Source: a virus (taxonomy: Duplodnaviria > Caudoviricetes). From it: a DNA stretch of 61,910 nucleotides. The notes under the pieces were generated by a model. The model had not been told where the DNA came from. It made no database searches and worked only from the letters and a program-made list of their open reading frames with translations. The stretch's first letter is position 1, and each line of letters opens with the position of its first letter. The DNA is taken from positions 1-61,910 of IMG/VR virus record IMGVR_UViG_3300000234_000005. One strand, given 5' to 3'. Below are positions 1,284-15,356 of the stretch, one piece after another. The position numbers were made by a program, and so were the translations under genes.

Positions 1284-3836
1284 TTACTTAATTACATTTT
1301 GTGGTTTAACTTTCAGCAATCTCTCTTTAGCTATGGCATCAAACGCACTTTTATCTAATGAGGACTTATGCTTCAGTTCTTCGATTTCAAGCTTTCTTGC
1401 GTGCTCTTTATCCTTCCCCATATTCCCCATAGCTAACTTATCTAATGAAGCCATATGCTTCAATTCCTCTGCTCGCACTTTGCTACTCTCTTCTTCACCA
1501 TTCTCAATCCTTAAGAACGCTAAGTCATCCAAGTCCGTCTTACTATGAATACTTCTAGCAGTAGCTTCATCCTTAGCTGCCTTAGCCAATTTAACTTGCT
1601 TATCAATCTCATTCTCCGCAGCAATACTTTCATTGCGAGCAGTCTCACTTTGTAGTTTAGCATTTTCCAATTGCAATCTCTGAATTTCAAGTTGCTTTAA
1701 TTGCTCTTGTACTGGATCAGGTTCTGGCTTAAAGTCCCTAATCTTCTTAGCTTGCTCAGGCATCCGTGACAAATCTAATATCTGAGCCATCAACTCATTA
1801 GTTATTCCAGGGTCAACCGAATTACCAATAGTCTGTAGCAAGAAACTCAATTCTTGCGCCTTAGCTGATTGATCTTCTAGTGTGGCAATAGTCAAATCAA
1901 TATCTATTCTACCCTCCAAGTCATCTTTACGTACAGGTACAAATTCGTCATTAGTTACTCTAACAATTTCTTCTTCTTCCAAGAATTCGGAATTATACGA
2001 CATCCATTTACGCAATAACGGCTTAACCATGTTCTCAGCTATATTACGTACTATGTTCATATTGCGTACCGAAGTAGCATCTTGTACGCCTCTAGCTGCC
2101 GTGGCGGTATTATGAGTAAGGATAAATCTATCTGTTACTGCATACAGTCTATCATCACTATCCACAGTTAGACAGCGCATGAGTACCTTGTCTACTTTTT
2201 CCATAGCAGTTATTTTTACAGTCCTGCATCTTGGCGTCATACTACTTGTAACTTTTTCACCTGTGAGGATTTCTTGTATTTTCGGTATTGTTACTGTACG
2301 ACCTGCTTGTAGATGCTCGTATACAGTATCAGCATCTACTGTGTGCCATTTTCTCAATGAGTGTTTAGTACCTGCTACCTTAATTGTCCATAAGTGCTCA
2401 CCGCCAGATTTTACAAAACCACCATTATTGAAATACATATCATAAGCTTGCTTTGGGTACTGTATTTCATGGGCTTTTGTTACACTAGTAGATTTACCAT
2501 TTGAACCAATAAGCTCATCACCATCTTGAATGTCTCTTAGTTTTTTGAATGAGCCATCAATCATTGGTATATCAGTTTCAATGTCTAACATCGCGCCGAG
2601 GCTGCTACCTGTAATACCACCACTGAAGCTTTTAACCCCAGTTAAACTTTCCATTTCATTATTCATCAATCCAATAAGATCAAATGCAGAATTTGGAATT
2701 ACATTATAACCACCTTGCCAGAAATCTGCTGGCCCACCATTAAACTCGAAGTTTTTACCTTGTAACCACTTCTTCCTATTAATCGGATCTAGCGCACCTT
2801 TACGTACTCCAATTTGACCATTATTACTCTGTGCCATATTATCAATAACACCACGAATAACAGCAGTCTTAATCTTCTGATTATCACCAATTAGTTCAGC
2901 ATTAGCCTCACCATACATCTGAAATGGGATTGCATTAAACGGTACAATAATGAATGGTGGTTTGCCATCCGGATAAGGATTACCTTCTAATCTAATGATT
3001 GTATCACCTACCCATACGCATACAACTGGTTCAGTTACACCATCTTCATCTACGTCATAGTTACCCCAATACTCATACACAACTAACTTTTTTCTGGCTT
3101 CATCTTCAAATTGAAACCTTGTTGGGTCTTGTGGATAGTATGAAGGATCATTGAAATTTGATCCTAGTGACTTATTAACTCTATCTAAGTTCTTATATCT
3201 ACCATCTTTCTTTAGTGTACTAATATCACTCTCATATCTATAAATAACAAACTGACAAGCATCAATATTATCTTGACAAGTAGGGTCTATGAATATGTCT
3301 TCATTTCTACACACCTTAGCAGTAGGTTGGTTTTTATGAACTATTGTATGCTTAGCTTTTTTAGTACCAATGTATTCTTCACCATACTCATTACGCAATA
3401 CTACTTCAGCATCTACTTCAACTTCTTCGTCTTCATAATCCCAACCAGTCTGAATAACTACAGTACCTTCACGCTCTAATACTTTAGTTGCTTTGGACAT
3501 GAAATTAAATCTATCAAACTTTCTACAGAATTGAGTATTTAACAATAATTCATTTTGTTTAGCTGCAGGAGTATCTTCATAGGTAATAGGAAAGCACTTT
3601 ACAATATCATTACTGCTTACGAACGGATCAATAATCTTAGAATGCTGCCATTCCAGTTGCTTCTTAATATCCTTAGATACAATAGCTGATTTGCCTTCTA
3701 CTTCATTACCATAAGGAAGCCCTTCGGTAGCATTTACCCAAATTTTTCTTTTAGCATCCCATTGCAATTTCATATACTCAGAAGATTTTAAATCTGCTTT
3801 AAAACTTCTTAGTAATTTAGCTTTATCAACAGCCAT
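1284..3836 (-). CDS. N4-like portal protein containing a mini-intein
   Basis: Portal-like motifs (DIFIDPTC, VVYEYWG, NPYPDGKPPF, ESLTGVKSFSGG, EEEIVRVTN) and a coiled-coil C-terminus; 850 aa precursor, about 689 aa after intein removal. Confidence 0.9.
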   Translation of the reverse strand: MAVDKAKLLRSFKADLKSSEYMKLQWDAKRKIWVNATEGLPYGNEVEGKSAIVSKDIKKQLEWQHSKIIDPFVSSNDIVKCFPITYEDTPAAKQNELLLNTQFCRKFDRFNFMSKATKVLEREGTVVIQTGWDYEDEEVEVDAEVVLRNEYGEEYIGTKKAKHTIVHKNQPTAKVCRNEDIFIDPTCQDNIDACQFVIYRYESDISTLKKDGRYKNLDRVNKSLGSNFNDPSYYPQDPTRFQFEDEARKKLVVYEYWGNYDVDEDGVTEPVVCVWVGDTIIRLEGNPYPDGKPPFIIVPFNAIPFQMYGEANAELIGDNQKIKTAVIRGVIDNMAQSNNGQIGVRKGALDPINRKKWLQGKNFEFNGGPADFWQGGYNVIPNSAFDLIGLMNNEMESLTGVKSFSGGITGSSLGAMLDIETDIPMIDGSFKKLRDIQDGDELIGSNGKSTSVTKAHEIQYPKQAYDMYFNNGGFVKSGGEHLWTIKVAGTKHSLRKWHTVDADTVYEHLQAGRTVTIPKIQEILTGEKVTSSMTPRCRTVKITAMEKVDKVLMRCLTVDSDDRLYAVTDRFILTHNTATAARGVQDATSVRNMNIVRNIAENMVKPLLRKWMSYNSEFLEEEEIVRVTNDEFVPVRKDDLEGRIDIDLTIATLEDQSAKAQELSFLLQTIGNSVDPGITNELMAQILDLSRMPEQAKKIRDFKPEPDPVQEQLKQLEIQRLQLENAKLQSETARNESIAAENEIDKQVKLAKAAKDEATARSIHSKTDLDDLAFLRIENGEEESSKVRAEELKHMASLDKLAMGNMGKDKEHARKLEIEELKHKSSLDKSAFDAIAKERLLKVKPQNVIK
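2109..2591 (-). mobile_element. Class 3 mini-intein in portal (161 aa, Met at position 1)
   Basis: GSSLGA|MLDIETDIPMIDG...GEHLW...MRCLTVDSDDRLY...ILTHN|TATAARG; W/C/T triad of class 3 inteins; no endonuclease domain. Confidence 0.85.
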
Positions 3837-11092: not shown

Positions 11093-11764
11093 TTACACAA
11101 AACATCTTTCATGTAATCTGTTTGGATTAGCCCATTCAAATAATGTATCTGTATGTTGTTCTATTTTAGCACAACTGTCTTCAAATTTCTTTCTATAAGC
11201 AAAACTTTCATCACCTGCCTCAGTAACACTTTTGACTGTACTATAGCCTCTATAAGCTATATACATTAATAATGCTTCCTGAAATATAACAGGTAATGGT
11301 ACTTCGCTGGTATATCTAATAATGTCTGGAGCTGTAGTATAATGAAATTGTAAAGTAACTCCTGTGCTAGGTATTTCTCCTAGAACTAAGTACTTGTTGA
11401 TAGCTAATGATTTTACATATACATCTTTATAAGCTTTTGTCTTATACAAATATTCAGTATTATAATCATCAGTCGGTACTTCCTCACCAATACTATTAGT
11501 AATTCTTATCAAAGCTAATGAGTTATCAGGTAATGCTACGGAGTCATCGCTAGTACTTGGTGATAACACAAATACATCATCAATATTAACTTGAATTGGG
11601 AATCTTTTGTATAATTCTAATACACCTTGATTAACAAATCCAAGTACTGCATCAATATTTTTTTGTTGTTCCGCAGTACGATCATTTTCAACACCAATAT
11701 CACTTAGCGCGGTTTGTCGTAAATCGCTAGTTACACTAAGTTCTATTAACGCAGAAGCTCTCAT
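11093..11764 (-). CDS. Head-tail adaptor, N4 gp67-like
   Basis: VNQGVLELYKRF and LP..FQEALLMYIAYR motifs; adjacent to TerL as in N4-like phages. Confidence 0.7.
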   Translation of the reverse strand: MRASALIELSVTSDLRQTALSDIGVENDRTAEQQKNIDAVLGFVNQGVLELYKRFPIQVNIDDVFVLSPSTSDDSVALPDNSLALIRITNSIGEEVPTDDYNTEYLYKTKAYKDVYVKSLAINKYLVLGEIPSTGVTLQFHYTTAPDIIRYTSEVPLPVIFQEALLMYIAYRGYSTVKSVTEAGDESFAYRKKFEDSCAKIEQHTDTLFEWANPNRLHERCFV

Positions 11765-11804
11765 ATCAATACCTAAATTAATTTATACTCTATTATACCA
11801 CATG

Positions 11805-14800
11805 CTAGAATATAGTACTACCACCATACTTAACATTTTTATCCTCTTCCCATTCACTTTGCCACATAAAACCATCTTTATCAACTTTAGTAGCCCATTC
11901 TTCATCAGGAGATGTATCAGGAGAGAAGGTATCCATCTCACTTAATTGATTCATTGTGTCTATACAATTATGTACTACTATACCGTTGGCTATAAAATTA
12001 TGAGTATTAGCTACTTCTAGATTGAATGTCGGAATTAATCTTTTGTCCTTTTTTTCGCAGAGAGATATTAAGTTGGCATTCTTTGCAACAGCTTGATTTT
12101 TTTCTATGCCACAAAAATGTACCGCCACACCATTCACAAGTGAATTTTTTCTGTCTAGCAGGGTCTGCTTGTATTGCTTGAAATTCACATGCGCGGTCGC
12201 AATAGGAAGTCCTGTTAACGAATCTAGCTGTAATTGGTTTTTCACACCACCCACATTTTTTATCGTAGTATTGAAGTATTTTTTCCCTGCTTCGATATAA
12301 GTTTTGTCTTGCATGTTCTTTACCTGCTTCTGTTTTATGCCATTCGTTAGCCAATGACCTAATTTTTGCCAGATGCTCTTTTTGTTTTTCCATGTCTCCT
12401 TGAAATCCGTGATGGCTGCTATGTAAGCTTGCAGAAAGTAACTCCAAGTTAGATAAGTTGTTATTATCTTTATTTTCATCTTTATGATGGACATGAAATC
12501 CCTTAGGCTGCTGCCCGTTCGCTTGTTGCCAAACATACTGGTGCAGCCACTTTCTTTTTCCGTCAGGGAATAATGTTGTGCTTTGATAGTATCCTGACTT
12601 TTTACGTGTCCATTTTCTTTCTTCGTATTCTTGTTGTTCCATGATATAACCTCGTCCTCTGGTAGCAATAAGGCAGCAGGTATATACCCCGCTGTGGTCA
12701 ATACAGGATGTTTATCAGACATAGTTAATTCACTACCATCCGAAAATACATAAGTATTGACCTCTTTAACACCAGTCATCATAACTGCTTCAACAGGTTG
12801 TGTCAACATATCAATATCAAACGTCAGTATTTCATCTCCGATCTCCACATCAGATATTTTTTTGTACGTACCATTAGCCATAGAAACTAAGGTATCACCT
12901 GCTACGCAGTCATCGTGCTTAAGTGCTTTATGACCACCAGCTAACGTATATTTACTTAGCTCATTAACTAATTCTTCTAGCAATTCATTAAAAAATACTT
13001 TATGGCTTATTAATTCTGGCTTAGGAAACCATATCTTATTTTGCTTAAACTTAGGCTGCACCCCTGTAATAAATCTAGTAGTCTTATCACTAGCTGGTCT
13101 AATGCCTGCTTCTTTACTACCCTTCTTCTTAGCTAACTGAAACCATACATTCTTACTCATCATCATATCAGTAAGAATACTCAAGAATCCACCTTGCTGT
13201 CCACTAGTCTCAATACCAACACTTAATGGCTTCCACTTATGCACATATCTAAACAAGTCCTCAAGGTTGTCTTGCATACCTTGTCGCTTGCATTGTCCAT
13301 CAACTAGGAACCAACTCTCATCACTACCAATAGCCCATACACTGATAACACTAAAGTCAGCACTTTTCTTTGTACTAGTAGCAAAATCCGTACTTATGTA
13401 AAAGTTATAATGATCCTTATGTTTTAGCAGTACATCAGGTTCATACCATCTAATATCATCTTCATCAACTAACAACGTAGTTAAATCGGTAACTTCTAAC
13501 ATATATTCTGTATAGAAGTTTTGTGCCATGCCTGCTGACTTATATTGGTTATACATCTTAGAGGTATAATCAAAACTAAATCTATCAGGCCACACACTAT
13601 CATATTCTATTTCTGTACAAGGAAATTTAGAGCATAATGGAAATTTTTCAATTCTATATTCCCCACTATTTTTTAATTTATGAAGCAGATCAGCTTCACT
13701 TAATGGAGTACCAATATAAATAATTTTGTGCTTCATTGGATTTAGTGCTGGAAGAGCAGAACTAAACCAATTCATTTCAATAGTGCTTCTTAGTGCTTCT
13801 GATGTCATTACTTCAGATGGCAGAATATCATCCGCTACCAGTATACTAGGACGATGCCCTCTCTTACTACGAATACCACGCCAGTTAGTTGACATACCGC
13901 GACCAGTAATAATAGTTTCAACATTATTTTTATTTACCAGCTCAATTTCATTATCTACACATCTCTGAATGGTAAGTAAGTTTTTCAAAAAGTTGCTATT
14001 TTCAATTTTAGATTGCACATTCTTAAAAAATGCTTTTACGTTACCTTCTAAGCTAGCTCCTAAAAATACTATAAATGGAACCATACCAAAATTTGGCCAG
14101 TGCCCGATAACACTTATATATATTATCGCGTACTCTAGCAGGGTACTGTTGTGGGTAATTTGATACCCTGTTGTAAGGAACAGGTGCTCTTCATTATCAA
14201 CAGTAATACACTGAGTTGGTACAGTTGCAACTTTACGTACTTCTTTTATTTTTTGATAATCTCTAATATGCTCAGCTTTAAATTCAACTTTATTTGCTTT
14301 TCTTTTAAGCTTAAACACATTGAAGTTTCTGTGCTTTATGTACACTCTATAATGCCCAGCATGGCCATTATCTCTGTAAGATAGCTTAGCAGACATTCCT
14401 AATGACCTAACTAGCTCAACCACATCTTTAGCCAGTACTTCATTACAACTGGAAAAACTAGAAGCTAACCCACTTTCTACAGTACCATCTGTATCCATTA
14501 AACCTCTTAATAACTCTAGCCTTTGCGTGATAGAGCCTAATTTATACATAGCAGGTATAAACTTGTTATGTGTATTAACATTCAACCCTAATGCTTTTAT
14601 TTTTGAACCAATACCCAGTATACTTCTAAATTGACTGGTACGTGCAGGTGTGGAATTTACGCCTTTATCATATGGGATATAACTAAATAATTCATCGGCA
14701 TCATCATTGTGTGAAGTTACTCTTGAAGCCCCACTCAATTTATCAACGTTACCATCACCAATTATTACCCCTAGAGTGTATGGATCTATAGGTAAATCTT

Positions 14801-15356
14801 TCTCTGGGTATTTTACCGGTTCTGGTAAACGCACATAATATTTTTGTTCTTTACCGTTTGGGTTATGGTAACTTACTTTACGAGTGTACCACTGAGTATT
14901 ATTAATATATTCTGTGCCTAATATACTTTTTACTTTTTTATCTCTGTTACTAGTAAACACTTCCCATAAGTGGTCCTTGCAAGCAGTAATTACGTTACCA
15001 TCTGCAAATTCAATCTCGTAAGTATCATCATTAAATACATCGCTTTTGTTTATTACACTAGTTAGCTCTCCTGAATGATCATATATTTTATCCCCTATTT
15101 GAATATCTTTAATAGTGACAGGACCATTAATCGTGTACACCAGCTCATCTAATGCTAAAGCTTTTCCAAGTCCACGTGTGCATTCAATAATTATATTCCA
15201 ATCTTTTTTCTTACTACTGAATAGTCCATCTGCAACCTTATAATGAACTTCAGGAGATGTGTTTTCTTCTAACCCAGCAGCTCTAATAAATGCAATAAAT
15301 TTTAGCGCTTCTTCACTAGGTACATAAATAGCTGTTTGTGTAATATCTGTAATCAT
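11805..15356 (-). CDS. terL: Terminase large subunit (N4-like) with two inteins
   Basis: YVPSEEALKF..FI N-terminus; Walker A RGLGK|ST; Walker B ILVADD; IGTP; nuclease DFATS..K.ADFS and HDD|CID. 531 aa after removing 338 and 314 aa inteins. Confidence 0.95.
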   Translation of the reverse strand: MITDITQTAIYVPSEEALKFIAFIRAAGLEENTSPEVHYKVADGLFSSKKKDWNIIIECTRGLGKALALDELVYTINGPVTIKDIQIGDKIYDHSGELTSVINKSDVFNDDTYEIEFADGNVITACKDHLWEVFTSNRDKKVKSILGTEYINNTQWYTRKVSYHNPNGKEQKYYVRLPEPVKYPEKDLPIDPYTLGVIIGDGNVDKLSGASRVTSHNDDADELFSYIPYDKGVNSTPARTSQFRSILGIGSKIKALGLNVNTHNKFIPAMYKLGSITQRLELLRGLMDTDGTVESGLASSFSSCNEVLAKDVVELVRSLGMSAKLSYRDNGHAGHYRVYIKHRNFNVFKLKRKANKVEFKAEHIRDYQKIKEVRKVATVPTQCITVDNEEHLFLTTGYQITHNSTLLEYAIIYISVIGHWPNFGMVPFIVFLGASLEGNVKAFFKNVQSKIENSNFLKNLLTIQRCVDNEIELVNKNNVETIITGRGMSTNWRGIRSKRGHRPSILVADDILPSEVMTSEALRSTIEMNWFSSALPALNPMKHKIIYIGTPLSEADLLHKLKNSGEYRIEKFPLCSKFPCTEIEYDSVWPDRFSFDYTSKMYNQYKSAGMAQNFYTEYMLEVTDLTTLLVDEDDIRWYEPDVLLKHKDHYNFYISTDFATSTKKSADFSVISVWAIGSDESWFLVDGQCKRQGMQDNLEDLFRYVHKWKPLSVGIETSGQQGGFLSILTDMMMSKNVWFQLAKKKGSKEAGIRPASDKTTRFITGVQPKFKQNKIWFPKPELISHKVFFNELLEELVNELSKYTLAGGHKALKHDDCVAGDTLVSMANGTYKKISDVEIGDEILTFDIDMLTQPVEAVMMTGVKEVNTYVFSDGSELTMSDKHPVLTTAGYIPAALLLPEDEVISWNNKNTKKENGHVKSQDTIKAQHYSLTEKESGCTSMFGNKRTGSSLRDFMSIIKMKIKIITTYLTWSYFLQAYIAAITDFKETWKNKKSIWQKLGHWLTNGIKQKQVKNMQDKTYIEAGKKYFNTTIKNVGGVKNQLQLDSLTGLPIATAHVNFKQYKQTLLDRKNSLVNGVAVHFCGIEKNQAVAKNANLISLCEKKDKRLIPTFNLEVANTHNFIANGIVVHNCIDTMNQLSEMDTFSPDTSPDEEWATKVDKDGFMWQSEWEEDKNVKYGGSTIF
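11967..12908 (-). mobile_element. Intein in TerL nuclease motif (314 aa) carrying an out-of-frame HNH gene
   Basis: KHDD|CVAGDTLV...MSDKHPVLT...TFNLEVANTHNFIANGIVVHN|CIDT. Confidence 0.9.
12007..12642 (-). CDS. HNH homing endonuclease with zinc fingers, nested in an alternative frame of the TerL intein
   Basis: LHQYVW...HVHHKDENKDNNNLSNLELL...H...H plus CxxC motifs; own RBS (GAGGT 6 nt before the ATG); frame differs from terL. Confidence 0.88.
   Translation of the reverse strand: MEQQEYEERKWTRKKSGYYQSTTLFPDGKRKWLHQYVWQQANGQQPKGFHVHHKDENKDNNNLSNLELLSASLHSSHHGFQGDMEKQKEHLAKIRSLANEWHKTEAGKEHARQNLYRSREKILQYYDKKCGWCEKPITARFVNRTSYCDRACEFQAIQADPARQKKFTCEWCGGTFLWHRKKSSCCKECQLNISLRKKGQKINSDIQSRSS
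14148..15161 (-). mobile_element. Class 3 LAGLIDADG intein in TerL Walker A (338 aa, Ala1)
   Basis: RGLGK|ALALDELV...DHLW...LGVIIGDG...LLRGLMDTDG...TQCITVD...ITHN|STLL. Confidence 0.92.

What the first reader, a model, noticed from the sequence alone, without database searches (positions are those of the whole stretch)
11967..12908. Dual-coding intein: HNH homing endonuclease hidden in another reading frame of the TerL intein
Seen: the TerL frame stays open through the whole 314-aa intein, but its central ~210 residues show no recognisable domain. The same nucleotides, same strand, shifted frame, encode a 211-aa HNH/zinc-finger protein with its own GAGGT RBS and stop, placed between intein blocks B and F. 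Known: intein endonucleases are normally in-frame. Inference: 636 nt are constrained in two frames, and the nuclease is translated independently of the essential TerL precursor. Out-of-frame nucleases in phage insertion elements have some precedent but are easily missed by annotation.
Basis: partly seen in the sequence, partly recalled or inferred. Interest (0 to 1): 0.8.

Follow-up and report, generated by a model that had tools for sequence, protein, structure and literature searches.

The report
Terminase intein with out-of-frame HNH gene
A phage DNA-packaging gene carries a self-splicing protein insert (an intein) whose middle stretch also encodes, in a shifted reading frame, a complete HNH nuclease gene of its own; the layout is real and kept by selection, but this kind of layout has been described before.

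Summary
terL (11805..15356, minus strand) carries a 314-aa intein at 11967..12908. A 211-aa HNH_3 ORF (12007..12642) lies between its splicing blocks, two bases out of step, behind a GAGGT ribosome site.

Both frames are under selection, unequally. Against relative L004, changes in the overlap fall on HNH codon position 3 (41 of 65). Identity there is 53/67 in the HNH frame and 19/67 in the terL frame. The terL frame is only kept free of stops: P about 0.001 under synonymous shuffling, while free-standing homologues carry 3-19 stops in that frame.

Assembly error is excluded: contigs from other samples show no indels, and one joins exactly across the intein (an intein-free allele).

The same design occurs in at least four terL lineages. 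A sister lineage in Vibrio phages has the intein split by the HNH gene.

It is not new in kind. Brucella phage terL has an annotated nested HNH (noted in print in 2015), and 2025-26 preprints describe out-of-frame endonucleases in inteins. This scan's index lists 55 notes in at least 50 genomes matching my search words; the eight shown all describe this layout. What may be unreported is this nuclease family in this role. Translation, splicing and homing are inferred.

The parts
11805..15356 (-). terL (large terminase) precursor ORF, 1183 aa, with two inteins
   Evidence: ORF. Pfam Terminase_6C (23.9 bits, cut-off 22.6). The extein is 55.6% identical to Alteromonas phage AD45 and about 39% to N4-like phage terL.
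11967..12908 (-). Intein 2 (314 aa), Cys1 ... His-Asn followed by Cys+1, inserted in the nuclease-domain motif HDD|CID
   Evidence: Boundaries. All 23 of 23 nearest terL relatives in IMG/VR read HDD[AC][IVL]D without an insert. A metagenome contig joins 11967 to 12910, skipping 942 nt. Pfam Intein_splicing spans aa 824-1130 but scores 31.0 bits, below the 35.8 cut-off.
12643..12908 (-). Intein N-terminal splicing part (blocks A and B: CVAGDTLV ... SDKHPVLT), read in the terL frame only
   Evidence: Against L004, differences by terL codon position are 25/13/43 and amino-acid identity is 56/88. It aligns to Hint and intein N-terminal regions.
12007..12642 (-). Nested HNH_3 / zinc-ribbon endonuclease ORF (211 aa plus stop), frame +2 relative to terL
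   Evidence: Pfam HNH_3 E 6.4e-15. phrog_15471 'HNH endonuclease' E 2e-23. All invariant HNH and Cys columns are kept. AF2 mean pLDDT 89.3. Best PDB match is I-HmuI 1u3e.
12649..12653 (-). GAGGT Shine-Dalgarno-like site, 6 nt before the HNH ATG
   Evidence: Read from the sequence. The 20-nt block GAGGTTATATCATGGAACAA is identical in L004, while the surrounding DNA is about 65-70% identical.
11967..12041 (-). Intein C-terminal splicing part (blocks F and G: RLIPTFNLEVANTHNFIANGIVVHN). Its first 35 nt overlap the 3' end of the HNH ORF.
   Evidence: Aligns to the C-termini of solved mini-inteins (RecA, DnaB), residues 289-314, at weak E-values of 0.06-0.5. Conserved in P0021, P0022 and P0025.
11964..11966 (-). 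Cys+1 codon of the C-extein
   Evidence: Intein-free relatives have Ala or Cys at this position.
12778..12806 (-). Sigma-70-like promoter match TTGACA-17-TATGAT inside the intein N part, about 135 nt upstream of the HNH ATG (a lead only)
   Evidence: Matches 11 of 12 positions. It is one of 5 such sites on both strands of the window. L004 has TTGACA-17-TAAAAT at the same place. Total promoter-like sites in the region are not above shuffles (5 against 4.9).

Best explanation
Intein 2 of terL is a cis-splicing class-1 type mini-intein that was invaded by a free-standing-type HNH_3/zinc-ribbon homing endonuclease gene. The gene sits at the usual endonuclease site, between splicing blocks B and F, on the same strand but two bases out of step.

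I propose it works as follows. Ribosomes translating terL read through the nuclease gene in the terL frame. That produces about 210 residues of unconserved, probably unstructured linker between the two halves of the Hint fold. The halves associate, the intein splices out, and intact TerL results. The nuclease is made separately by internal initiation at its own GAGGT-N6-ATG. It would cut intein-free terL alleles near the HDD|[AC]ID codons, so that repair copies the intein and nuclease in.

Selection therefore acts on the HNH amino-acid sequence and, in the terL frame, only against stop codons. Those stops are removed mostly by codon choice in the HNH frame: no NTA codon stands before a purine-initial codon.

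Shown here: both ORFs, their frames, the selection pattern, the stop avoidance, the recurrence in other phages, the intein-free alleles and the correctness of the assembly. Inferred: translation of the HNH ORF, protein splicing, and cleavage or homing at terL.
For: Anatomy.

Selection switches frame at the HNH ATG. Comparing the window with L004, differences upstream fall at terL codon positions 25/13/43 (56/88 aa identical). In the overlap they fall at HNH codon positions 14/10/41, with 53/67 aa identical in the HNH frame and 19/67 in the terL frame. A second lineage shows the same: L016 against L017 gives 9/4/22 by HNH position in the overlap, while differences in the flanks fall at host position 3.

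Population variants: of the 24 listed inside the ORF, 17 are synonymous in the HNH frame and 8 in the terL frame. In the catalytic half, 14 of 14 are synonymous in the HNH frame.

Stop avoidance: P(open) is about 0.001 for the window and 0.0002 for L002. Of 40 loci, 13 are nested with 0 stops in the HNH+1 frame, 26 are free-standing or split with 3-19 stops, and one (L020, 69 stops) is a 29-residue match inside a large unrelated ORF. NTA before a purine occurs 0 of 55 times in four nested lineages, against 23 of 72 before a pyrimidine (Fisher 5e-7). In free or split homologues the counts are 72 of 195 and 41 of 137 (p = 0.2).

Fold: the HNH frame gives mean pLDDT 89.3. In the terL-frame model, residues 91-250 score 21-36.

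Homologues: the terL-frame middle has only 5 hits among 1.84 billion representatives, all host-frame translations of relatives.

Mobility: 23 of 23 nearest terL relatives lack the intein. A contig joins exactly across it in runs X2/X3. HNH-deleted derivatives exist: P0025 and a 363-nt deletion in X6.

No assembly error: 0 gaps across 11965-12734 in contigs of X2/X3 and X6.
Against: There is no expression data. No RNA run holds the stretch, and nothing shows that the HNH ORF is translated or that the precursor splices.

Pfam Intein_splicing and Hint hits on the window's terL fall below their curated cut-offs (31.0 against 35.8; 27.8 against 29.7). PDB sequence matches to inteins are weak (E 0.015-0.5). 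The AF2 model of the intein is poor overall (mean pLDDT 38.4 from a 10-row alignment), so it does not confirm an intact Hint fold.

Block B reads S-D-K-H where relatives have T-D-N-H.

In the C-terminal zinc-ribbon half, the listed population variants are 3 synonymous and 7 non-synonymous in the HNH frame, so that half is less constrained. That list was also cut: 37 further variants across the whole laid stretch 11700-13200 were not shown.

The intein-free joint rests on one contig per run with only 29 letters on the shorter side. X2 and X3 look like one data set.

The codon-usage score is below the gene norm in both frames (0.074 and 0.017, against 0.275 +/- 0.058), so it does not separate them.
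Confidence: 0.85

Rival explanations
1. The HNH ORF is a silent relic. A nuclease gene once landed in the intein, is no longer translated, and the stretch now serves only as a spacer that must stay stop-free in the terL frame.
For: Derivatives with the HNH part deleted exist (P0025; a 363-nt deletion in X6), so the nuclease is dispensable for terL. The C-terminal half shows 7 non-synonymous against 3 synonymous population variants in the HNH frame. There is no expression evidence.
Against: The ORF is intact and keeps every invariant catalytic and Cys column. Identity to L004 is 53/67 in the HNH frame against 19/67 in the terL frame, with differences on HNH position 3. In the catalytic half, 14 of 14 population variants are synonymous in the HNH frame. 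The SD+ATG block is identical in L004. A relic would drift and collect stops.
Confidence: 0.06
2. This is a sequencing or assembly artefact. Two compensating indel errors hide an ordinary in-frame HNH intein.
For: One database protein (P0009) has an intein block-B region and the HNH domain in a single frame, so in-frame forms, or frameshifted reads, do exist somewhere.
Against: Contigs from other samples (X2/X3, X6) cover 11965-12734 with substitutions but 0 gaps. The same frame offset (host = HNH+1) is seen in 13 of 40 loci from independent assemblies and in a GenBank phage genome. The HNH ORF has its own SD, ATG and stop, and starts where free-standing homologues start. The context-specific avoidance of NTA codons cannot be produced by errors.
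Confidence: 0.01
3. The nested HNH is not a homing nuclease. It is a packaging helper of the terminase, like the HNH proteins that assist cos cleavage, and is kept next to or inside terL for that reason.
For: Free-standing homologues often lie beside terminase genes, for example directly upstream of terS in Acinetobacter phage BP10. The 2015 brucellaphage paper raises this association (PMC4422536, passages read).
Against: All 23 of 23 nearest terL relatives have neither the intein nor the nested gene. Intein-free and HNH-deleted alleles occur in the same or similar metagenomes. The family is HNH_3 and the best structural match is the homing endonuclease I-HmuI. On the tree, nested and free forms are interspersed, needing at least 3 changes. 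This fits a mobile element better than a fixed packaging factor.
Confidence: 0.05
4. The nuclease is made as a fusion by programmed ribosomal frameshifting from the terL frame into the HNH frame, rather than by internal initiation.
For: Both frames are open across the junction. P0009 shows that a fused reading is possible.
Against: I did not look for a slippery heptamer or stimulatory structure. A conserved SD at proper spacing plus an ATG is present. Homologous free-standing genes begin at the same Met. The one hairpin upstream (12694..12674) is not conserved in L004 (by eye, on the alignment).
Confidence: 0.03

Closest known systems
Brucella phage Tb/Pr (Perisivirus) terL intein with a nested out-of-frame HNH gene (GenBank NC_019446.1; Virol J 2015, PMC4422536)
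   Same: The host gene is also terL, with an intein and a complete HNH/zinc-ribbon ORF on the same strand in another frame while the terL frame stays open. The record annotates terL as 'intein present' and gp08 as 'putative HNH endonuclease' nested inside it. [quoted passage not shown]
   Different: The nuclease family and layout differ: PF01844 with the HNH motif near the C-terminus after the zinc ribbons. It matches the window's protein only at motif level (38% over 37 residues). The frame offset is +1, not +2. The phage group and host are unrelated.
Non-canonical actinobacteriophage inteins with the homing endonuclease in a separate frame or strand (Gosselin, Arsenault & Gogarten, bioRxiv 10.1101/2025.01.02.630785)
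   Same: The concept is the same: the endonuclease is encoded between the splicing blocks in 'frame 3' relative to the intein, many cases are in terL, and the proposed origin is invasion of an intein by a free-standing endonuclease gene (abstract and sections 8 and 15 read).
   Different: Their same-strand out-of-frame nuclease is endonuclease VII-like, and HNH appears there only in frame. The hosts are actinophages. They give no codon-context or population-variant evidence of the kind obtained here.
Fractured genes: split inteins with a free-standing endonuclease gene between the halves (Dassa et al. 2009, PMC2677866)
   Same: A free-standing endonuclease gene with its own control elements sits inside an intein of a phage gene. 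The window's sister lineage in Vibrio phages 1.238.A and 1.245.O has exactly this arrangement at the homologous terL site, with an HNH of the same family.
   Different: In the window the host frame is not broken, so one polypeptide and cis-splicing are expected. Dassa's loci carried GIY-YIG or Vsr-like nucleases (passages read).
ShiLan 'hidden HNH' insertion in a phage DNA methylase (Arsenault et al., Genes 2025, PMC11855218)
   Same: An out-of-frame HNH ORF sits inside an insertion that stays open in the host frame (abstract read).
   Different: That insertion has no splicing domains, whereas this one lies between intein blocks A/B and F/G.
[quoted passage not shown]
   Same: [quoted passage not shown]
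   Different: The host is a cellular gene (dnaX). Neither 'HNH' nor 'terminase' occurs in its text.
I-HmuI (PDB 1u3e), an HNH_3-type homing endonuclease of a phage group I intron
   Same: It is the best structural match of the AF2 model of the nested ORF (Foldseek E 0.014, probability 1.00, 30% identity over 93 columns).
   Different: I-HmuI is intron-encoded and has different DNA-binding modules. The window's protein has two C-terminal CxxC...C zinc-ribbon units.

Membership tests
Intein (Hint-fold protein-splicing element) | An in-frame insertion, with exact boundaries, that is absent from orthologous alleles | tested here: met
   All 23 of 23 nearest terL relatives read HDD[AC][IVL]D without an insert. 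A contig in X2/X3 skips 942 nt at 11967/12910.
Intein (Hint-fold protein-splicing element) | Splicing residues: Cys/Ser1, block B TxxH, C-terminal His-Asn, and Cys/Ser/Thr at +1 | tested here: met
   The window has Cys1, SDKH (TDNH in L004, P0021, P0023), VVHN and Cys+1. The block names and motif definitions are recalled, not taken from a call.
Intein (Hint-fold protein-splicing element) | A profile or structure match to Hint or intein splicing domains | tested here: inconclusive
   Pfam Intein_splicing scores 31.0 bits against a 35.8 cut-off, and Hint 27.8 against 29.7. PDB phmmer E-values are 0.015-0.5. The AF2 model has mean pLDDT 38.4. In L002, which has the same design, Intein_splicing passes at 52.3 bits.
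Intein (Hint-fold protein-splicing element) | Protein splicing activity | not testable with these tools
   This needs expression of the precursor.
HNH_3 homing endonuclease | HNH_3 profile match with the catalytic His/Asn residues present | tested here: met
   Pfam HNH_3 scores 55 bits against a 24.8 cut-off. H52, H53, N61, N65, H74 and H78 are invariant across 16 sequences. Mean pLDDT is 89.3 and the best PDB match is I-HmuI.
HNH_3 homing endonuclease | Sporadic, mobile-element-like distribution | tested here: met
   The element is absent from 23 of 23 nearest terL relatives. Nested, free and split forms are interspersed on the tree. An intein-free allele occurs in the metagenome.
HNH_3 homing endonuclease | Site-specific cleavage of the empty allele, and homing | not testable with these tools
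   This needs a cleavage assay and a co-infection assay.
Non-canonical intein with an out-of-frame, same-strand endonuclease gene (Brucella phage terL; Gosselin et al. 2025) | A complete endonuclease ORF between blocks B and F, on the same strand in a different frame, with the host frame open throughout | tested here: met
Non-canonical intein with an out-of-frame, same-strand endonuclease gene (Brucella phage terL; Gosselin et al. 2025) | The endonuclease frame is under purifying selection | tested here: met
Non-canonical intein with an out-of-frame, same-strand endonuclease gene (Brucella phage terL; Gosselin et al. 2025) | The same nuclease family as the described cases (endonuclease VII-like, or PF01844 with a C-terminal HNH) | tested here: not met
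   The window's nuclease is HNH_3 with an N-terminal HNH motif. The Brucella gp08 is PF01844 and similar only at motif level. So this is a different nuclease family inside the same design.
Fractured gene / naturally split intein (Dassa et al. 2009) | The host frame is broken by a stop before the endonuclease gene and restarts after it | tested here: not met
   There are 0 stops in the terL frame in the window. The feature is met in Vibrio phage loci L001 and L065, which have 14 stops in that frame and separate N and C ORFs.

The most novel reading that the evidence does not exclude
One HNH_3/zinc-ribbon endonuclease family may have been caught at every stage of the route by which inteins gain nucleases and become split:
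- free-standing beside terminase genes (Acinetobacter phage BP10);
- nested out of frame in an unbroken intein (this window, L004, Highwayman, the L015 family, L052);
- breaking the intein into a fractured terL (Vibrio phages 1.238.A and 1.245.O);
- possibly fused in frame (P0009);
- decaying towards a mini-intein (P0025, the X6 deletion);
- lost altogether (intein-free allele in the same metagenome).

Nesting arose or reverted at least three times. It is always in the one frame (host = HNH+1) where stops can be purged by avoiding NTA/NTG before purines. That would make this family a natural, testable series for the 'splicing first, nuclease later' model and for the origin of split inteins. 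It would also supply a simple codon-context statistic for finding such overprinted genes.
Probability: 0.45. Interest if true: 0.5.

Novelty: new member of a known kind. Interest (0 to 1): 0.3.

Why it matters
Gene callers report only the long terL ORF, so nested nucleases like this one are routinely missed. In Acinetobacter phage Highwayman and Vibrio phage 1.238.A the HNH ORF is not annotated at all.

The case gives clean, quantitative evidence that an essential phage gene tolerates about 210 residues of unselected sequence inside an intein, provided no stop appears. It also shows that selection achieves this by context-specific codon choice in the overlapping gene.

With its split sister allele in Vibrio phages, it offers a concrete pair for testing how contiguous inteins turn into split inteins, which are useful protein-engineering tools. 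It does not change the known picture of inteins, because the design itself is already described.

Tried and rejected
Searches and tests that gave nothing or could not discriminate:
- megablast of terL against phage records: no match.
- tblastn of the intein in the terL frame against phages: only Tetrasphaera phage TJE1 terL at 23.5%.
- The search for related loci with the intein N part in viral contigs: 19 pattern matches, none confirmed.
- The metagenome scan with the HNH protein found 20 loci, none above 50% identity. A full-length dN/dS against a close relative was therefore not possible. The closest DNA, L004, stops 70 codons into the HNH ORF.
- The codon-usage log-odds score did not separate the two frames (0.074 against 0.017).
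- My first codon-context script tested the wrong stop context (third-base T before AA/AG/GA) and showed nothing. It was corrected.
- The intein AF2 model was too poor to confirm the Hint fold, so I ran no fold search on it.
- The promoter scan was not above shuffles overall. The terminator-like hairpin at 12694..12674 is not conserved in L004 (by eye).
- No RNA holder was listed for the stretch, so nothing can be said about expression.
- The tree places the window's HNH with the very long branch L019, and I do not trust that pairing.
They may list more nuclease types.

Searches behind the statement that HNH_3 in this role is not in print. The held library is incomplete, so this is weak evidence.
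Full report
WHAT IS THERE. Its terL extein is 55.6% identical to Alteromonas phage AD45 and about 39% identical to N4-like (Schitoviridae) phages. terL is a 1183-aa ORF on the minus strand, 11805..15356. It carries two insertions. Intein 1 (aa 66-403, window 14148..15161) has in-frame LAGLIDADG matches. Intein 2 (aa 817-1130, window 11967..12908) begins CVAGDTL and ends VVHN, followed by Cys. Inside intein 2, on the same strand, a 211-aa ORF runs 12007..12642. It starts 2714 nt into terL, so it is in frame +2. It is preceded by GAGGTTATATC-ATG. It matches Pfam HNH_3 (E 6.4e-15, 55 bits, cut-off 24.8) and phrog_15471 'HNH endonuclease' (E 2e-23). The terL-frame translation of the same 639 nt matches no Pfam family.

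IS THE OPEN terL FRAME MORE THAN CHANCE? I held the HNH protein fixed and resampled or permuted its synonymous codons 20,000 times each. The terL frame stayed stop-free in 0.12% and 0.11% of trials, with 4.6 and 4.1 stops expected. The third frame has 26 stops. Natural controls are stronger. Across the 40 loci I examined that carry a relative of this HNH (duplicates between collections not removed), 13 have the ORF nested in a long host ORF, all with 0 stops in the HNH+1 frame. Another 26 free-standing or split homologues have 3-19 stops in that frame. One locus (L020) is a 29-residue match inside an unrelated 1509-aa ORF. The mechanism of avoidance is visible. A stop in the host frame needs an HNH codon NTA followed by a purine, or NTG followed by A. 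In four nested lineages (window, L002, L015, L052), NTA occurs 0 of 55 times before a purine-initial codon but 23 of 72 times before a pyrimidine-initial codon (Fisher 5e-7). In eight free or split homologues the counts are 72 of 195 and 41 of 137 (p = 0.2). For the window alone the counts are 0 of 12 against 7 of 21 (p = 0.03).

WHICH FRAME DOES SELECTION READ? The closest DNA relative is IMG/VR locus L004. It has the same terL site, lacks intein 1, and its contig ends 70 codons into the HNH ORF. It aligns to the window without gaps. Upstream of the HNH ATG, differences fall 25/13/43 on terL codon positions 1/2/3, and 56 of 88 residues are identical. From the ATG onward they fall 14/10/41 on HNH codon positions. 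There, 53 of 67 residues are identical in the HNH frame and only 19 of 67 in the terL frame. The 20-nt block GAGGTTATATCATGGAACAA, which includes the SD and the ATG, is identical in both. A second, unrelated terL lineage behaves the same way. In L016 against L017, differences in the overlap fall 9/4/22 by HNH position, while in the flanks they fall at host position 3. Variants in metagenome contigs laid on the window tell the same story. Of the 24 variants listed inside the ORF, 17 are synonymous in the HNH frame and 8 in the terL frame. In the catalytic half (12421-12642), 14 of 14 are synonymous in the HNH frame and 12 of 14 change the terL-frame residue. In the zinc-ribbon half the HNH frame shows 3 synonymous and 7 non-synonymous changes, so constraint there is weaker. 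The table was cut; 37 further variants across the whole laid stretch 11700-13200 were not shown.

FOLD AND HOMOLOGUES. Sixteen aligned homologues keep all HNH catalytic columns and the CxxC...C units. AF2 on that alignment gives mean pLDDT 89.3. The best PDB match is the homing endonuclease I-HmuI (1u3e; E 0.014, probability 1.00), and no PDB match reached E 0.001. The intein in the terL frame, from a 10-row alignment, gives mean pLDDT 38.4. The N-terminal part scores about 41-68 and residues 91-250 score 21-36. This fits an unstructured linker, but the model is too poor to confirm the Hint fold. A full scan of 1.84 billion representative proteins with the terL-frame middle (213 aa) found only 5 hits. 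All are host-frame translations of relatives. P0021 is L004-like, and its frame is open right through to ...VVHNC-IDLLNQLSEM. P0022 and P0023 are fragments. P0024 is Vibrio-phage-like. In P0025 most of the HNH region is deleted.

NOT AN ARTEFACT. Logan contigs from four runs were laid on 11700-13200. X1 may be the source sample. X2 and X3 give near-identical contigs and probably count as one data set. X6 comes from another study. Contigs of X2/X3 (11965-12270 and 12247-12734) and of X6 (12244-12721, with 15 substitutions) have 0 gaps. The only indels listed are a +2/-2 pair at 12914 and 12923, in the extein of one X6 contig. With the recurrence of the same frame relation in independent assemblies, this removes the compensating-frameshift explanation.

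MOBILITY. All 23 of 23 nearest terL relatives in IMG/VR (64-77% identical over the nuclease domain) read HDD[AC][IVL]D with no insertion. In X2/X3 one contig joins 11967 to 12910, skipping 942 nt. With the G>A change listed at 12909, this is exactly an intein-free ...HDD|CID... allele present beside the intein-containing one. It rests on one contig per run with 29 letters on the shorter side, so it is suggestive rather than firm. In X6 a contig skips 363 nt (121 codons, 12271-12633). That removes the HNH motif while keeping the terL frame (27 letters on the shorter side). P0025 is a comparable deletion derivative.

RECURRENCE. The same design, with the host frame always HNH+1, occurs in four verified terL lineages:
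- the window and L004 (Terminase_6C);
- Acinetobacter phage Highwayman, L002 (Terminase_3/3C; Intein_splicing 52.3 bits; P(open) 0.0002; the HNH ORF is not annotated);
- the L015 family (phrog_38 terL);
- L052 (Terminase_3/6N).
L062 is a further case whose host fragment I could not name. On a maximum-likelihood tree of 28 HNH proteins, nested and free forms are interspersed. Well-supported branches force at least 3 changes. Highwayman's nested gene is sister (100/98) to the free-standing gene upstream of terS in its relative BP10. In Vibrio phages 1.238.A and 1.245.O the homologous terL site holds the same HNH family, but the terL frame is broken: 14 stops, with an N-terminal ORF, the HNH ORF and a C-terminal 'hint domain' ORF. 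This is a fractured gene in the sense of Dassa et al..

MECHANISM. Shown here: two overlapping ORFs, purifying selection on the HNH protein, stop-only selection on the terL frame, a conserved SD+ATG, sporadic distribution, and presence/absence alleles. Inferred: the precursor is translated through the overlap, the two Hint halves fold around a roughly 210-residue linker and splice in cis, the nuclease is made by internal initiation, and it cuts empty alleles at the HDD|[AC]ID site to drive homing. The rivals are a silent relic, an artefact, a packaging-helper HNH, and a frameshift fusion. They are scored in their own section and together get about 0.15.

WHAT IS KNOWN. The design is in the record. 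GenBank NC_019446.1 (Brucella phage Tb) annotates terL as 'intein present' with a nested 'putative HNH endonuclease'. [quoted passage not shown] That nuclease is PF01844 with a C-terminal motif, is offset +1, and resembles the window's only at motif level. [quoted passage not shown] They list HNH only as in-frame. Related cases are the ShiLan hidden HNH (PMC11855218, abstract and one passage) and the cyanobacterial dnaX intein (bioRxiv 2026, abstract and passages). This scan's own index lists 55 earlier notes holding my search words in at least 50 genomes; the eight shown all describe this layout. Two of them gave me the Brucella lead, which I then checked. In the searches I ran, I found no paper describing an HNH_3-type out-of-frame nuclease in terL inteins of phages of Gram-negative hosts. 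The library is incomplete and supplements were closed.

VERDICT. The feature is well characterised and under selection, but it is a new member of a known kind. Interest is 0.3.

Noticed in passing
window 14148..15161 (-): The first terL intein (338 aa) lies in the P-loop (GLGK|ALALDEL...QITHN|S). It has an in-frame LAGLIDADG domain (Pfam LAGLIDADG_3 32.9 bits, Hom_end 22.8 bits) and starts with Ala rather than Cys or Ser. It is absent from relative L004 but present at the same site in Vibrio phage 1.238.A.
   Followed up: partly
L001 215..3943 (Vibrio phage 1.238.A, NC_055735.1) and L065 (1.245.O, NC_055736.1): terL is fractured at the site homologous to the window's intein 2. There is an N-terminal ORF ending in an intein N part, an unannotated 236-aa HNH_3 ORF overlapping both neighbours, and a 109-aa ORF with the intein C part plus the C-extein, annotated as 'hint domain protein'. 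This looks like a naturally split terL intein. The two phages differ at 15 of 1251 nt here.
   Followed up: partly
L015 2076..2807 (-) and L016 2082..2726 (-): The first inteins of these terL genes sit at two different insertion sites. They carry ANTISENSE NUMOD4+HNH_3 ORFs (244 and 215 aa; Pfam above the cut-offs) while the terL frame stays open. L053 has the L016-type intein as a mini-intein without the antisense ORF. The 2025 preprint reports antisense LAGLIDADG and VSR-like genes but not antisense HNH.
   Followed up: partly
window 12271..12633, run X6; protein P0025: A metagenome contig skips 363 nt (121 codons). This removes the HNH catalytic region but keeps the terL frame. A database protein from a relative has a similar deletion and has lost the nested ATG (EVIKC instead of EVISW). 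These look like decay towards a mini-intein.
   Followed up: partly
window 11967/12910, runs X2 and X3: A contig joins exactly across intein 2, giving an intein-free terL allele in the same metagenome as the intein-containing one. Support is one contig per run with 29 letters on the short side, and X2 and X3 look like one data set.
   Followed up: no
window 12778..12806 (-): There is a near-consensus sigma-70-like promoter (TTGACA-17-TATGAT) inside the intein N part, about 135 nt upstream of the nested ATG. L004 has TTGACA-17-TAAAAT at the same place although the encoded residues differ. It may drive separate transcription of the nuclease.
   Followed up: partly
protein P0009: This 176-aa database protein has an intein block-B region (33% identical to the window's intein N part) and the HNH domain (52% identical) in ONE frame. 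It is either a true in-frame fusion or a frameshifted read.
   Followed up: partly
L002 2896..3543 (Acinetobacter phage Highwayman, OZ038341.1): A 215-aa HNH_3 ORF nested out of frame in the terL intein is not annotated in the record. Its closest relative is the free-standing HNH upstream of terS in phage BP10, whose terL has no intein.
   Followed up: yes
window 2109..2591 and 59505..61910: First-reader notes on this same window report a mini-intein in the portal gene, and two inteins plus a group I intron in a helicase. If correct, this phage is unusually rich in intervening elements. I did not check them.
   Followed up: no
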